Positions 4,563 to 13,728 of a stretch of 20,000 nt of DNA are shown piece after piece. The stretch is from an uncultured virus (IMG/VR IMGVR_UViG_3300035498_000413) (taxonomy: Duplodnaviria > Heunggongvirae > Uroviricota > Caudoviricetes). The stretch is from positions 56,611-76,610 of the IMG/VR virus record IMGVR_UViG_3300035498_000413. The stretch is one strand, 5' to 3'. The notes beneath the pieces were generated by a model. That model did no database searches and had not been told where the DNA came from. It saw only the letters and a list, made by a program, of their open reading frames with translations. Both the position numbers and the translations under genes were made by a program. How positions within the stretch are numbered: the stretch's first letter is position 1; each line of letters opens with the position of its first letter.

Positions 4563-5153
4563 TCACGAACTGCTAGATGTTTGGCTACAATCTGTAGTAC
4601 AGGTATTTCCGCTTTTACACTTGGAGCTTGTTGTATTACCTGATTTACATAAGTTACAGCCTTTACAGCTATCACAAGTATTGCAACCAGTATTGCAAAC
4701 AGTACACTGATTTTTTTCATAAGTTAAATCATTAGCTTTATTGGCTAAATCTTCAAAATAAGAGCCATAAATATAAGTTTTTCCTGCTGTTGCTCTTTTG
4801 GAGCTTCCCACTAATGCAGCATAATTATTAAACCAAGATGCTTTAACTTCTTTATCAGTTTGTGTTGTAATTCCGCTGGTACTCTTGCCCCCAATACCTT
4901 TAGATCTTAAAGCTTTAACATATGCAGGAAGCCTATTCCAATCGGTAAGTTTAATTAATTCACTTCCAGCAGTTACCCCGCCATTCCATGCAAACTTATT
5001 AGAGCAATCGATACTATAAACTTCTTGAACTTTACAATACGTTTGTGCATCATCACAGGTTGTACAATTACCATTGTCACAATTATTACAACTATCATTA
5101 CAAGTATTGCAGCCATCGCAGTCTTGACAGCTAACACAAGTTTCACAACTCAT
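4563..5153 (-). CDS. Cys-rich (Cxx)n protein, candidate radical SAM substrate
   Basis: Start ATG 5153 (MSCETCVSCQDC) with AAGGAG RBS; 196 aa; 22 Cys in two terminal clusters; overlaps the rSAM stop codon. Confidence 0.75.
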   Translation of the reverse strand: MSCETCVSCQDCDGCNTCNDSCNNCDNGNCTTCDDAQTYCKVQEVYSIDCSNKFAWNGGVTAGSELIKLTDWNRLPAYVKALRSKGIGGKSTSGITTQTDKEVKASWFNNYAALVGSSKRATAGKTYIYGSYFEDLANKANDLTYEKNQCTVCNTGCNTCDSCKGCNLCKSGNTTSSKCKSGNTCTTDCSQTSSSS

Positions 5154-6798
5154 TTTTCTTCTCCTTTCTACAATAATTTTTATAATGACATTCATTATCT
5201 AAATAATCTTTAAAAACTAAGTTATTTTCTTCTACTAAACATTTCATCATATTAACAGCGTGTTTAAACAAAATTTGGTTCCACCTACAAGCTACTTCTG
5301 GATTGATAAAGAAATCTTCATAAGTATCATAGTTAGAAGAAGGACAACCATTGGTCTGGCACACCTGCCGTAAGGGGCAAGTTTTGCAGAGTTCAGGCTT
5401 CTCACACTCATTTATTGCTTCTTTTGTATATTCATCTAACAAAGCTTCATGCTTTTTTCTATCTACGCCATTCCAAATATCACCGATAAAGAAGAAACTA
5501 TTTCCATAAGAATCTTGCTCTTGACAAGCATAAATTCTACCATCATAAGAAATAGAAGCAGAAGTAGTACCAAGGCCGCATCTAAAAGGCTCGCGATGAA
5601 TAGAAACATTATTAAATCTATTATGATAGAACTGTAAATCTCTATTTAATATATCTTCATAAGTTTTATCAATACGAGAGAAAGAAGTAAAAGGTTTATG
5701 ACCCTCAGAAAACTGTAGATACATCAACGCAAAAATCTTCTCTACTTCTTCATCAAGTTTTTGAATATTTTCTTCTGACCAAGTTTCTCTACCATTAGGC
5801 ATTGTAAAGAAATTGCGGAAACCGTGCTCCATAGCGAAAACATACGAGTTAAAAGTGCCATCAACTGTAGCTTGGTCAATGGTTGCTCTCATAGTGGTGT
5901 TTGGAAAATTCTGTAATAAATAGGAAATATTGGAAGCCGCCGCCTCATAACTACTTTGCCCATTCCGCATTGGACGATTTTTATCTTGAACTTCTTTAGG
6001 ACCATCGAAAGAAAGATGGGGATAGATATCATACTTCCGCATAAAATCAATTCTTTCCTTGTCTAGCAGCGTCCCATTAGTGGTCATTGTAAGAGTAATA
6101 GTATCTCCATATTTCTCTCTAATATGCTTAGTCAGCGGCACAATAATACTATCCCACATTATAGTAGGTTCACCGCCAAAGTAAGTAATAGAAGGATCTT
6201 GCTTAATTCCAGTTAATTCTTCCTTTTGTTTAACATTATTCATTAAAAAATCAACGCTTTGTTCTGCAATTTCGTAAGTCATATAGTGGTTACATTGCTT
6301 AACAAAGCAGTTATGAACAGCAAAACCATCTGCAAAATAAGTATGTTCACTAGTCTCAAAATTATAAACCTGCGTAGTTTCAAAAATTTCTTCGACAGAT
6401 TCAATTATAGAACTATATAGCCCTATATCTCCAAATATGTAAGCCACATCGATCCCAGGCTTTAAATCTTTTACCTGGGTCCATTTATTTACTCCAGTTA
6501 AGATAGGATGATTTCCTGTAAGATAAATTTTATGTTTATCCTTCGTAACAATTTTAAATAAAGTTCTAGCTTCTCTTACAAAAATATTAAGAACTTTAGT
6601 TGTTTTTACTCTATGGGGAGCTTCTTCTTCAAACCCCATAACTCTATCAGCGATTTCAATATCTTCAATATTTTTCGTGCTACCATCAGCCATTAAGATC
6701 TTAGTGCCGGCTGGTGCGCAATACTTGCATTCTAGGTTACACGCGTCAGTGAGGTTCAAACACACGCTACTAAAAAACGGGTAATGTTCTTTATACAT
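5143..6798 (-). CDS. radical SAM/SPASM enzyme containing a mini-intein
   Basis: CNLECKY[intein]CF gives CxxxCxxC; also FGGEP, TTNGTLL, SFDG; SPASM region CGLG...DGRIYAC...IGDI...CKTCPLRQVCQTNGC...C. Confidence 0.92.
   Translation of the reverse strand: MYKEHYPFFSSVCLNLTDACNLECKYCAPAGTKILMADGSTKNIEDIEIADRVMGFEEEAPHRVKTTKVLNIFVREARTLFKIVTKDKHKIYLTGNHPILTGVNKWTQVKDLKPGIDVAYIFGDIGLYSSIIESVEEIFETTQVYNFETSEHTYFADGFAVHNCFVKQCNHYMTYEIAEQSVDFLMNNVKQKEELTGIKQDPSITYFGGEPTIMWDSIIVPLTKHIREKYGDTITLTMTTNGTLLDKERIDFMRKYDIYPHLSFDGPKEVQDKNRPMRNGQSSYEAAASNISYLLQNFPNTTMRATIDQATVDGTFNSYVFAMEHGFRNFFTMPNGRETWSEENIQKLDEEVEKIFALMYLQFSEGHKPFTSFSRIDKTYEDILNRDLQFYHNRFNNVSIHREPFRCGLGTTSASISYDGRIYACQEQDSYGNSFFFIGDIWNGVDRKKHEALLDEYTKEAINECEKPELCKTCPLRQVCQTNGCPSSNYDTYEDFFINPEVACRWNQILFKHAVNMMKCLVEENNLVFKDYLDNECHYKNYCRKEKKNEL
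6310..6720 (-). mobile_element. mini-intein (137 aa, no homing endonuclease)
   Basis: Block A CAPAGTKILMADG, block B LTGNHPIL, block F VYNFET, block G HTYFADGFAVHN followed by Cys+1. Confidence 0.92.
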
Positions 6799-6810
6799 AA
6801 TTTCTCCTAT

Positions 6811-6840
6811 AAAAAATAAAGGGAGGTTTCCCTCCCTTTT
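6811..6840 (-). terminator. intrinsic terminator after the suppressor tRNA (possibly bidirectional)
   Basis: AAAGGGAGG-GAAA-CCTCCCTTT hairpin with T tracts on both strands. Confidence 0.8.
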
Positions 6841-6844
6841 AGTC

Positions 6845-6919
6845 TGGCAGAGGCGCTTCAGAATCGAACCAAGACCCGAGGGGTTAGAGCCCTCTGTGCT
6901 ACCATTACACTACACCTCC
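6845..6919 (-). tRNA. amber suppressor tRNA, anticodon CUA (probably Gln-charged)
   Basis: GGAGGTG TA GTGT AATGGTA GCAC A GAGGG CT[CTA]AC CCCTC GGGT CTTGG TTCGATT CTGAAG CGCCTCT G CCA. G73; 1-nt bulge in the T stem. Confidence 0.9.
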
Positions 6920-7020
6920 ATATGTAAGATAGCTTATTTAGTCTTTAGGTTCTTTCTACATTATTTTCTACATTTAATTTTTCCGATTCTTTTCTCTATT
7001 GCTATCTAATTTATATAATT

Positions 7021-7072
7021 GATAAGATTTGTTAAAACATCATCGCCACGAGAAGGCTCTTATCTTGATGAC
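7021..7072 (-). ncRNA. minimal HDV-like (theta) self-cleaving ribozyme
   Basis: P1 GTCATC/GATGAT with a G-U wobble at G1, P2 GATAAGA/TCTTATC, P3 GCC/GGC, L3 TTCTCGT, J4/2 ...TAACAAA. G1 lies 2 nt after the tRNA-Ser discriminator. Confidence 0.85.
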
Positions 7073-7073
7073 G

Positions 7074-7159
7074 CGGAGCGAGAGGGATTCGAACCCCCGT
7101 GTCTCGTAGACACGCTAGTTTTCAAGACTAGGCTGTTATGACCGCTTCAGTACCGCTCC
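7074..7159 (-). tRNA. tRNA-Ser(UGA), no encoded CCA
   Basis: Cloverleaf with CTAGT CT[TGA]AA ACTAG, long variable arm and G73; followed by CGT rather than CCA. Confidence 0.93.
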
Positions 7160-7162
7160 GTT

Positions 7163-7236
7163 TGGAGGTAGATGCCTGAATCGAACAGGCAACAAGATAT
7201 TACAAGTATCTCGTTTTACCATTAAACTAATCTACC
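7163..7236 (-). tRNA. tRNA-Thr(UGU)
   Basis: GGTAGAT...AGATA CT[TGT]AA TATCT...TTCGATT...ATCTACC T CCA. Confidence 0.92.
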
Positions 7237-7359
7237 ATAAAGAGCCCAGGCTACGTTCCACAGCTCGATGGAGGATTTGGGTTCCTCGTTAACCAACCCT
7301 TTTTCAAACACCCATAAAAGTAAACCTTGTTGTAGCTTCGTTCCCTTAACTACAATAAT

Positions 7360-7388
7360 ATTATATGATATTTTTTTTGAAATTTCAA
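7360..7388 (-). promoter_or_regulatory. sigmaA-type promoter driving the Thr-Ser-ribozyme-suppressor tRNA unit
   Basis: TTGAAA-17 bp-TATAAT. Confidence 0.78.
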
Positions 7389-7420
7389 AGATTTTTGTAA
7401 AAAAGATCCTTAAATCTAAA

Positions 7421-7450
7421 GAAAAAAGGGGACTCATAAACGAGTCCCCT
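7421..7450 (-). terminator. intrinsic terminator ending the structural cassette
   Basis: AGGGGACTC-GTTTAT-GAGTCCCCT followed by TTTTT; 4 nt after the TGA of the recoded gene. Confidence 0.85.
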
Positions 7451-7454
7451 AATA

Positions 7455-8639
7455 TCAAAAATCAAACCATGTAACACTATCTAAAGCAGAAGCTACGTCA
7501 TCCAAAGTGGTATTTTTCCCCAATAAATGATATTGAGAACTATAGATAAAGTAAGCTATATCTCCAGCGTTTATTACACCAGCTTTAATAGCTGCTCCGT
7601 TATAGTAAATACTTTTTGCGGTTTTAGAATTAATGCTTAAAGTAGCATTTGCAGGTACATCATAAGTAAATTTAACAGCAACGATGCCTCCAGTAGTTAA
7701 AGAATAGCTACTTAAAGAAGCTGTTTTGGCAGTAGTAGCTGCCGCTGTTGAGCACGTTACATATCCCTATCCCAGTGAAGCATTAGAGTAAGTAGAATTT
7801 GCATCACCAGTAGCCCACCAACCAGTATAAGTAGTTCCATTAATATTTACTCCAGAACGATAGGTTAATGTAACAAGATAATTGGCCCCATAATGCGTAG
7901 TTAATCTTGAAGTTGCCCATCTATAACAATCAATAGCGCCTGTAGTAGTACCATCGTCGAGAGTTAAATTTAAAGTAACATTAGTACTACTCACAGAAGC
8001 ATAAGGAAGCCAATAATTAATACAAAGTCCATCATATAATGCTTTGACACCATGTAAATTACCAGTCCAATCTGCGGTAGAAGCTGTCTGAGTGCCCATT
8101 ACAAAGCGATTATCAGTTAGATTGATAGTAACATTAGAAGAACCATCAAAAGAAGCAGAGCCCGACTCATCGCCGTCCACAGTTATTGTGCGGGCAGTGG
8201 TTAATTTAGGTACTGAGTCTATAGAAGCCCAAGTCGCGTCTCCACGTAAGAACTTAGATTGGCTACCTGCGGAAGGCTAGGGCACTAAACCCCTTGTACC
8301 TGCCGTGCTCGCACTTGCGCCAGTAAATGTATCAACATTATTCTAAACCACAGTCCAGTCTGTTGCTTTATAGGAAGAACTATACGCAGAAACACAAATA
8401 ATCATGTCTCCTGATTCTATACTTCCTATATTTGTTATACTAAAAGAGGCAGAGGCTTTGTAAGTCCAACCAACTTTATAATCCGTTAATCCTGTAATAT
8501 CGGCAGCACTTGAGACTGTACCCTTAAAGATAAGTCCTGATGCGAGGGTCGTCTCAATAATGTCAAGACGATCCCTCGCAGCAGTATCTTTTAGAGTGTA
8601 AGTGGTGCTGCCTACTTTAATATTAGCTAAATCTGCCAC
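7455..8639 (-). CDS. tail-fibre-like protein, 394 aa when TAG=Gln (3 internal TAG)
   Basis: Joins ORFs 8343..8639 and 7767..8180 plus an unlisted C-terminus in one frame, through TAGs at 8343-45, 8277-79 and 7767-69 (DWTVV*NN, GLVP*PSAGSQSKFLRGDATW, SNASLG*GYVTCSTAAAT). Ends at TGA right before the terminator. Confidence 0.88.
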
Positions 8640-11965: not shown

Positions 11966-12022
11966 ATGTATCCTCTGCGTTTGCGTGGGCTTGGAACCAC
12001 CATCATCGGCCGCATTATACAT
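11966..12022 (-). ncRNA. twister ribozyme (type P1)
   Basis: ATGTA TAA TGC GGCC GATGATG GTGG TTCCAAGC CCAC GCAAAC GCA GAGGA TACAT. P1 ATGTA/TACAT, UAA cleavage loop, P2 TGC/GCA, P4 GTGG/CCAC, T1 TCC/GGA, T2 GC/GC. Confidence 0.88.
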
Positions 12023-12910: not shown

Positions 12911-12984
12911 TGGCAGCCGATGAAGGGATCAAACCTCCACCACGAGAGTCAAATTCTCGGATGCTATCACTACACCAATCGGCT
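12911..12984 (-). tRNA. tRNA-Gln(UUG)
   Basis: AGCCGAT...CGAGA AT[TTG]AC TCTCG...ATCGGCT G CCA; A19/U56 variant elbow. Confidence 0.85.
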
Positions 12985-13652: not shown

Positions 13653-13658
13653 ATATCG

Positions 13659-13728
13659 TGCAGGATAGAGGATTTGAACCTCTATTCTTTGCCTTTTGAG
13701 CAAATACGCTATCTTACGCCAATCCTGC
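13659..13728 (-). tRNA. atypical tRNA-like gene (formal anticodon AAA)
   Basis: Perfect acceptor (GCAGGAT/ATCCTGC), T (AGAGG/CCTCT) and anticodon (TTTGC/GCAAA) stems, but loop TCAAAAG, short GG-less D-loop and no CCA. Confidence 0.6.

What the first reader, a model, noticed from the sequence alone, without database searches (positions are those of the whole stretch)
7021..7074. Theta (minimal HDV-like) ribozyme trimming tRNA-Ser(UGA) and releasing the suppressor tRNA precursor
Seen: the nested double-pseudoknot elements (P1 with G-U at the cleavage site, P2, P3, L3 TTCTCGT, J4/2 CAAA, no P4) begin 2 nt after the discriminator of the only canonical tRNA here that lacks CCA. Known: theta ribozymes sit at tRNA 3' ends in recoded gut phages. 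Inference: cleavage leaves tRNA-Ser-G73-C74 with a 2',3'-cyclic phosphate, and a 5'-OH downstream RNA carrying the suppressor tRNA. The ribozyme is therefore upstream of the suppressor, not on it, and could time its maturation.
Basis: partly seen in the sequence, partly recalled or inferred. Interest (0 to 1): 0.8.

Follow-up and report, generated by a model that had tools for sequence, protein, structure and literature searches.

The report
Leftover ribozyme from homing-endonuclease cassette
A small self-cutting RNA of the published theta type stands in for the CCA tail of a phage serine tRNA, and related phages suggest it is what remains of a selfish ribozyme-plus-nuclease cassette, not a timer for the neighbouring suppressor tRNA.

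Summary
The ribozyme fold is real: a complete minimal HDV-like (theta) motif at 7072-7021 (minus strand). It is the only hit in the 76.6-kb contig, 0 of 1000 shuffles match, and it should cut after tRNA-Ser G73-C74. Cleavage is untested. Its P1.1 has one C-G pair plus U·U, a form seen in no published theta row I displayed, yet found in 38 of 57 viral loci sharing the core.

The suppressor-timing idea is not supported. Two relatives, about 97% identical around the site, keep the same operon and an identical suppressor tRNA, have no ribozyme, and encode CCA instead.

A third allele, one 151-nt record, carries this ribozyme followed by the ribosome-binding site and start of a GIY-YIG endonuclease gene. 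Across phages, tRNAs directly before this endonuclease family carry a theta motif in 18 of 49 cases, against 3 of 289 other tRNAs.

Best reading: the endonuclease-less remnant of a mobile ribozyme-plus-homing-endonuclease cassette that displaced CCA and now trims tRNA-Ser. I found no paper describing this link. This scan noted the cassette before on other DNA.

The parts
7360..7388 (-). Sigma-70/sigma-A-type promoter-like site, 11 of 12 consensus matches, 17-nt spacer; likely drives Thr-Ser-ribozyme-suppressor
   Evidence: 3 sites found, 1.9 expected; this is the only 11/12 site; unchanged in L166/L167
7163..7236 (-). tRNA-Thr(UGU), encoded CCA
7073..7159 (-). tRNA-Ser(UGA) ending G73 (7074) and C74 (7073); no encoded CCA here, full CCA in L166/L167
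7021..7072 (-). Minimal HDV-like (theta) ribozyme, 52 nt; predicted cut between 7073 and 7072
   Evidence: family
7037..7038 (-). 3' strand of P1.1: G7038 pairs with L3 C7052, U7037 faces U7053 (U·U); the same two bases can instead extend P1 with C74 and G73
7028..7031 (-). J4/2 with the catalytic-position cytosine at 7031
   Evidence: same four letters in 401 of 13,257 published rows
7008..7020 (-). 13-nt AT-rich tail found only in the ribozyme allele; 7020-7010 is shared with the record in which an endonuclease gene start follows, so 7010/7009 is the inferred deletion junction
6920..7007 (-). Spacer before the suppressor tRNA, shared with the ribozyme-free allele
6845..6919 (-). Amber suppressor tRNA (CUA) with encoded CCA; identical in ribozyme-free L166
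6818..6839 (-). Intrinsic terminator-like hairpin 5 nt after the suppressor CCA

Best explanation
The element is a theta ribozyme that came in as the 5' module of a mobile cassette (ribozyme, AT-rich spacer, ribosome-binding site, SegB-like GIY-YIG endonuclease gene). The cassette sits at the 3' end of tRNA-Ser(UGA) in place of C75-A76. In this genome the endonuclease gene has been lost and the ribozyme remains. Shown from sequence: the fold, the three alleles, and the ribozyme-endonuclease linkage across phages. Inferred: (1) the RNA cuts itself at 7073/7072 using C7031 and Mg2+; (2) tRNA-Ser-G73-C74 is left with a cyclic phosphate, which must be opened and removed, possibly by the phage's phosphoesterases or cREC protein, before CA is added, probably by the host enzyme; (3) in the full cassette the same cut frees the endonuclease message with a 5'-OH end, and the endonuclease spreads the cassette by cutting ribozyme-free tRNA regions; (4) the suppressor is a downstream bystander matured by RNase P and host 3' nucleases.
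For: Empty allele: L166/L167 match the window at 416 of 426 aligned bases upstream and 221 of 227 downstream (L166) but have CCA plus 13 nt where the window has 65 nt of ribozyme and tail; run X1 shows the same allele. Full allele: record 3 of run X2 covers 7010-7094 with 2 differences, then continues into a ribosome-binding site and the first codons of the endonuclease family; that motif marks the gene start in 6 of 318 loci, from 4 contigs. Forward linkage: 13 of 25 tRNA-adjacent U·U-type ribozymes are followed by this gene, against 0 of 20 two-pair loci, none tRNA-adjacent; Pfam calls GIY-YIG in 13 of 14 ORFs scanned. Reciprocal linkage: 18 of 49 tRNAs directly before the gene carry a theta against 3 of 289 others; 12 of 43 against 3 of 260 without seed loci; 0 of 247 CCA-ending tRNAs carry one. 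One ribozyme occurs with the gene (L061) and without it (L014, L030, L052, where tRNA-Tyr follows). Broken endonuclease genes occur (L008, L027). A copy of the old tRNA tail follows the gene in L183 and L202. T4 SegB recognises the tRNA T-arm motif and homes (PMC2330249 abstract).
Against: No cleavage or expression data. The full allele rests on one 151-nt record at depth 6.9, with 30 loose letters shown; it does not bridge to the suppressor. Direction of change is not proven: the gene could have inserted behind an older ribozyme. 31 of 49 tRNAs before the gene lack a strict ribozyme (23 of 49 with two mismatches allowed), 17 of them with CCA, so the endonuclease does not need it. 12 of 25 tRNA-adjacent ribozymes have no gene behind them. 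The 80 loci were ranked by likeness to a ribozyme-linked gene and are not independent. A clear tail copy was seen in only 2 of 24 ribozyme cassettes and none in the window. The repair genes are also present in ribozyme-free L166 (nucleotidyltransferase and RNA-binding protein), so they are not dedicated partners.
Confidence: 0.72

Rival explanations
1. The ribozyme is a stand-alone tRNA 3'-trimming device that moves by recombination between tRNA genes. Endonuclease genes insert behind it later because both favour tRNA 3' ends, so the window allele never held the gene.
For: 12 of 25 tRNA-adjacent ribozymes lack the gene. Ribozyme presence is scattered on the endonuclease tree (16 changes). The same P1 occurs at Ser and Trp tRNAs without a following gene (L169, L170, L184). 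This is the role proposed in PMC10879173.
Against: Other tRNAs in the same arrays almost never carry a ribozyme (3 of 289). The window keeps the cassette spacer up to the base where the ribosome-binding site starts in X2. Tail copies behind the gene span the whole ribozyme-plus-gene unit (L183, L202).
Confidence: 0.13
2. The motif is slow or dead. The weak P1.1 loses to a P1 extension formed by tRNA bases C74 and G73, and host nucleases trim tRNA-Ser anyway.
For: ViennaRNA gives the two extension pairs probabilities 0.95 and 0.87 and about 3.2 kcal/mol (it cannot model the pseudoknot). Upstream mispairing with P1/P1.1 slows human CPEB3 (PMC4836649 passages). The reverse primers of the four thetas tested in vitro read GG at this junction (read by eye).
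Against: Every helix is intact. 29 distinct relatives keep the same U·U form with varied P1 and P2 pairs, and none of 62 decoy-pattern loci parses with a non-C. A phage HDV ribozyme with U·U in P1.1 cuts at about 4 per minute (PMC13635239 passages). G73 plus retained C74 is the usual register, 15 of 16.
Confidence: 0.08
3. One reading: the cut releases the suppressor precursor and times its maturation, and so the amber code switch.
For: Both lie in one predicted transcript. The phage is amber-recoded. A 5'-OH end could change the precursor's stability (own knowledge).
Against: Two close relatives carry the identical suppressor and in-frame TAG genes without any theta-pattern match in their records (79% and 48% complete). 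1 of 38 relatives has a suppressor downstream. Among endonuclease genes, in-frame TAG is as common without an upstream ribozyme (21 of 41) as with one (14 of 27).
Confidence: 0.07

Closest known systems
Theta ribozymes (tRNA-associated minimal HDV-like ribozymes; Kienbeck et al. 2024, PMC10879173)
   Same: Same topology without P4, same length class, cut within 1 nt of a phage tRNA end, CCA-less tRNA, amber-recoded phage. Serine tRNAs (584 rows) and this J4/2 (401 rows) are in the table of 13,257. The same P3-L3 core occurs in 32 rows, many with one base between tRNA and cut.
   Different: P1.1 has U·U as second pair: all 32 rows with this core have GA (31) or GG (1), and all 30 displayed rows of the non-tRNA table have two pairs. 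The exact sequence is absent. The main text never mentions homing, endonuclease, GIY or HNH.
HDV-like ribozymes with a weak P1.1: mammalian CPEB3 (PMC4836649) and the Ackermannviridae ribozyme (PMC13635239)
   Same: One standard pair plus U·U in P1.1, compatible with activity (passages).
   Different: They have P4 and are not described at tRNA ends (tRNA occurs 0 times in PMC13635239).
T4 SegB, free-standing GIY-YIG homing endonuclease of the tRNA cluster (PMC2330249; review PMC2988022)
   Same: GIY-YIG gene directly behind tRNA genes, present or absent among relatives.
   Different: No ribozyme is described with segB (ribozyme 0 times in PMC2988022 main text). Here a self-cleaving RNA replaces the tRNA's CCA, and the window has lost the gene.
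Group I intron plus homing endonuclease composites (collaborative homing; passage in PMC2988022)
   Same: A catalytic RNA offsets the damage of insertion and the nuclease gives mobility.
   Different: One cut, no splicing; the gene lies outside and downstream of the ribozyme.

Membership tests
Minimal HDV-like ribozyme | Nested double pseudoknot order P1, P2, P3, P1.1 with intact helices | tested here: met
   unique in the contig, 0 of 1000 shuffles
Minimal HDV-like ribozyme | G+1 paired as G·U at the cut; cytosine first in J4/2; no P4 | tested here: met
   G7072·U7039, C7031, 5-nt L4
Minimal HDV-like ribozyme | Mg2+-dependent self-cleavage lost on C-to-U change | not testable with these tools
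   no RNA holder listed
Theta ribozyme (published set) | Cut within 5 nt of a phage tRNA 3' end | tested here: met
   one base after the discriminator
Theta ribozyme (published set) | Retrieved by the final descriptor, which appears to need two P1.1 pairs | tested here: not met
   Fails my two-pair version. The requirement is inferred from displayed rows; the descriptor itself is a figure I could not see. Filed as a variant, not a catalogue member.
Theta ribozyme (published set) | Tailed phage of the mammalian gut, often amber-recoded | tested here: inconclusive
   Virus record with tail-fibre-like genes; recoding supported; habitat and host not established
SegB-type homing cassette | GIY-YIG gene next to tRNA genes | tested here: not met
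   Absent at this site in the window; its start follows the same ribozyme in run X2
SegB-type homing cassette | Empty and occupied alleles in related phages | tested here: met
   L166, L167, X1 empty; X2 occupied; window partial
SegB-type homing cassette | Endonuclease cuts the empty allele and biases inheritance | not testable with these tools
   needs an enzyme assay and phage crosses

The most novel reading that the evidence does not exclude
Many tRNA-linked theta ribozymes are the RNA half of a composite selfish element: a self-cleaving, non-splicing ribozyme that lets a SegB-like endonuclease gene land inside a tRNA's CCA end without killing the tRNA, and frees the gene's message. Lone thetas such as this one are remnants of a gain, decay and loss cycle. 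Their presence in recoded phages is then not evidence for a role in the code switch, and a U·U class missed by the published catalogue makes up much of the tRNA-linked set in these phages.
Probability: 0.5. Interest if true: 0.75.

Novelty: new variant of a known kind. Interest (0 to 1): 0.55.

Why it matters
Why phages put a ribozyme behind tRNAs that hosts can already trim is open, and the published proposal ties thetas to the amber code switch. This locus offers three natural alleles in one phage lineage (CCA only, ribozyme plus endonuclease gene, ribozyme only) around an unchanged suppressor tRNA. The regulation and selfish-element explanations can therefore be compared directly. It also points to a U·U structural class that the published tables appear to lack. 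The ribozyme itself, as first reported, is an ordinary kind.

Tried and rejected
Rfam: no HDV-type match at the site.

An 8-bp P1 starting at G73 as the active fold: rejected because it uses up the P1.1 guanine; kept only as a possible inhibitory form.

Internal promoter for the suppressor at 7035-7008: 9 of 12 matches, chance level, and absent from the ribozyme-free allele.

Looking up six ribozymes from endonuclease loci in the published tRNA-linked table: 0 of 6 found, including the 2 two-pair controls, so absence of exact sequences says little about the descriptor.

Phage CCA-adding enzyme (PF01743): none in G000, G001, G002, which are 45%, 79% and 48% complete; L006 was not searchable. 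Inconclusive.

RNA evidence: no RNA holder listed; both runs are contigs, so no ends could be mapped. No habitat is drawn from them.

Cultured phages: 30 records, tRNA-sized matches only, none covering 80%.

Genome collection: 5 of 38 matches parse.

Upstream context of 9 other suppressor tRNAs of this type (12 loci less the 3 of this lineage), read by eye: no shared spacer.

Amino acid at TAG: Gln is the commonest non-TAG residue opposite (6 of 21 site-residue pairs, shadow frames included). Weak support only.

Tree: the quick tree stood in for the unfinished careful one; labels were hand-set, and L217, with too little upstream DNA, was labelled ribozyme-free. 16 changes against a shuffled mean near 21; strongly supported branches force at least 3.

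Tail copies of 10 nt or more: 4 of 24, but L192 and L253 match the T-arm only (probably another tRNA) and were not counted.

Literature: no listing (0 hits) showed a ribozyme-endonuclease link at tRNA ends; only listings were seen for most, and subscription journals are largely missing.

Full report
OBSERVATION. On the minus strand, 7072-7021 folds as a minimal HDV-like ribozyme: 6-bp P1 opening with G·U, 7-bp P2, 3-bp P3, 7-nt L3, no P4, and a cytosine at 7031 first in J4/2. It follows tRNA-Ser(UGA), whose discriminator is 7074 and whose C74 is 7073. 9 of 11 tRNAs in the window end in CCA; Ser(UGA) and an odd Phe(AAA) call do not. My narrow descriptor finds this site alone in the 76,610-base contig, with 0 of 200 shuffles. 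A broader one agrees, with 0 of 1000 shuffles; its C-to-A decoy hits the same site in a shifted register. Cleavage itself is untested.

SETTING. The record is a virus contig, 45% complete. Open frames of 100 codons or more cover 72% under table 11, 86% with TAG read through and 75% with TGA read through. Gln for TAG has only weak direct support. A promoter-like site (7388-7360) and a terminator-like hairpin (6839-6818) bracket Thr, Ser, ribozyme, a 101-nt spacer and the suppressor. Downstream lie two phosphoesterases, a polynucleotide kinase, a cREC protein, an RNA ligase, a nucleotidyltransferase and an RNA-binding protein. Such proteins are proposed to heal cyclic-phosphate ends (PMC7824862, passages), and an HDV-cut tRNA needs that healing before charging (PMC12381190, passages). 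No CCA-adding enzyme was found in three incomplete records. A Bacillota host is my inference; 4 of the 5 parsed matches in the genome collection carry Bacillota labels.

A VARIANT FOLD. P1.1 has one C-G pair and a U·U. A scan of viral contigs for this core with GU at that junction gave 57 loci; 38 parse fully, as 29 distinct sequences, and 25 of the 38 sit within 5 nt of a tRNA end. P1 and P2 pairs vary widely among them, though the parse demands pairing. The real control is that none of 62 loci from a non-C decoy pattern parses with a non-C; the 4 that parse do so with C. The two-pair form of the same core parsed in 24 of 49 cores, none tRNA-adjacent (the pattern excludes some J4/2 forms). 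In the published tRNA-linked table all 32 rows with this core have GA or GG, and 30 displayed rows of the other table all have two pairs. The descriptor is a figure I could not see, so its exclusion of U·U is inferred. U·U does not preclude activity: CPEB3 has it (PMC4836649, passages) and a phage HDV ribozyme with it is fast (PMC13635239, passages). Folding predicts that C74 and G73 can extend P1 and compete with P1.1, so the rate may be low. Among 39 distinct tRNA-ribozyme pairs, the cut follows A73 directly in 9 of 9, follows G73-C74 in 15 of 16, and follows U73-C74 in 11 of 14.

TEST OF THE SUPPRESSOR IDEA. A search with the downstream radical SAM gene gave 3 loci: the window's twin L165 and two relatives, L166 and L167. 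Both relatives keep Thr, Ser and the suppressor in order. L166 matches at 416 of 426 bases upstream and 221 of 227 downstream, and its suppressor gene is identical. After C74 it has 15 nt beginning with the rest of CCA, where the window has 65 nt. Neither record matches a theta pattern anywhere (79% and 48% complete), and both have genes with in-frame TAG. Only 1 of 38 ribozyme relatives, the twin, has a suppressor downstream within 600 nt. The ribozyme is an alternative to encoded CCA and is dispensable for the suppressor. A small effect on precursor stability is not excluded.

WHERE IT CAME FROM. 13 of the 25 tRNA-adjacent relatives, and 14 of all 38, are followed within about 35 nt by a ribosome-binding site and a GIY-YIG gene; 0 of 20 two-pair loci are (the profile was built from 10 of these genes). 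Pfam confirms GIY-YIG in 13 of 14 ORFs; the miss is frameshifted L008. For the reverse test I fetched the best 80 of 520 relatives of the gene. Distinct tRNAs directly before the gene carry a strict theta in 18 of 49 cases, other tRNAs of the same loci in 3 of 289. With two mismatches allowed it is 26 of 49 against 5 of 289; without 7 seed loci, 12 of 43 against 3 of 260. None of 247 CCA-ending tRNAs has one. The loci are related and were ranked by likeness to a ribozyme-linked gene, so I give the P values no weight. The pairing spans about eleven tRNA types and is scattered over a quick protein tree. In-frame TAG is no commoner in genes with a ribozyme (14 of 27) than without (21 of 41). Against a strict partnership: 17 of the 49 tRNAs have CCA and no ribozyme, and 12 of 25 ribozymes have no gene.

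THE THIRD ALLELE. Laying two runs on 6600-7600, record 2 of X1 shows the CCA allele. Record 3 of X2 covers 7010-7094 with 2 differences and then leaves the window for a ribosome-binding site and the codons M-A-Y-I (read by eye). That motif marks the endonuclease start in L004/L034/L183 (one contig), L168, L195 and L220. So this very ribozyme exists with the gene attached at the base where the window's sequence turns back to the shared spacer. It is one 151-nt record and does not reach the suppressor. Parallel cases exist: L061 has the gene behind a ribozyme that L014, L030 and L052 carry alone, and L195 has the gene behind a CCA-less tRNA-Ser with no ribozyme. Following a lead from earlier scan notes, I found a 13-14-nt copy of the tRNA tail just after the gene in 2 of 24 cassettes (L183, where it runs on to CCA, and L202), and none in the window.

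MECHANISM. Most likely (0.72) a cassette of ribozyme plus endonuclease gene replaced C75-A76, and the gene was later deleted. The ribozyme stays because tRNA-Ser no longer encodes CCA. It cuts after C74, the cyclic phosphate is removed, and CA is added. In the full cassette the cut would also free the gene's message with a 5'-OH end, which resists 5'-end-dependent decay (own knowledge). Homing is inferred by analogy with T4 SegB (PMC2330249, abstract; PMC2988022, passages). In B. subtilis, RNase Z is stimulated by a U within 2 nt of the discriminator (PMC10100781, passages); here the first U is third, which mildly favours reliance on the ribozyme if the host is similar. Rivals: independent arrival of ribozyme and gene (0.13), a slow or dead motif (0.08), suppressor timing (0.07).

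KNOWN AND NEW. It works like a theta ribozyme (PMC10879173: parts 1-4 of 7 of the text, term searches of the whole main text, supplement 2 part 1, supplement 9, and searches of the other readable supplements; preprint 10.1101/2023.06.13.544163, passages). It fails the inferred two-pair P1.1 test, so I file it as a variant. The paper's main text has no mention of homing or endonucleases; its annotation file was too large to read and may bear on this. Searches listed nothing on a ribozyme-endonuclease cassette at tRNA ends. I reached the cassette reading; two unchecked scan notes on other genomes, seen, say the same and are not counted as support.

VERDICT. Observation confirmed, interpretation partly supported, suppressor timing not supported. 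New variant of a known kind; interest 0.55.

Noticed in passing
window 11967-12021 (-): Twister-P1-like ribozyme (50.9 bits, E 6.6e-09, below the gathering score of 67.2) ends 1 nt before the 5' end of tRNA-Ser(GCU); kept in L166 with a 3-nt deletion. A second ribozyme class in the same tRNA array; its cut would leave about 50 nt of leader.
   Followed up: partly
window 6938-6973 (-): An 11-codon open frame with two in-frame TAG codons lies in the suppressor's leader between two 7-nt complementary arms; kept in L166 with a synonymous change. Could sense suppressor level, or be a chance 12-nt duplication; not seen before 9 other suppressors.
   Followed up: partly
window 7237-7356 (-): The leader before tRNA-Thr has two interleaved 5-bp complementary pairs near 7300-7270 that look like an H-type pseudoknot (read by eye); nearly unchanged in L166; no Rfam match.
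   Followed up: no
window 12910-12805, 12172-12112, 11873-11832 (-), approximate: Three related hairpin-closed elements with a shared ACAGCAA motif follow tRNA CCA ends; they recall the skipping-rope RNA motif (recalled, no Rfam hit).
   Followed up: no
L267 1385-2210 versus window 12911-12984: The ribozyme-free relative has a different tRNA-Gln with CCA followed by a GIY-YIG gene where the window has none: the reverse polymorphism at another tRNA.
   Followed up: partly
window 4563-6798 (-): Radical SAM/SPASM maturase-like gene with an intein (absent in L166/L167), followed by a very cysteine-rich 210-aa gene: a possible phage-borne peptide-modification pair.
   Followed up: no
window 13658-13728 (-): tRNA with anticodon AAA, irregular D and anticodon loops and no CCA; also called in L266/L267.
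   Followed up: no
G000 5114-6313 (L001): Reverse transcriptase gene with 19 in-frame TAG codons beside a DUF6273 gene, suggesting a diversity-generating retroelement that depends on the suppressor (the label is my inference).
   Followed up: no
L012, L015, L062, L287: U·U-type ribozymes after tRNA-Cys calls whose cut falls one base beyond an encoded CCA, unlike the CCA-replacing majority.
   Followed up: no
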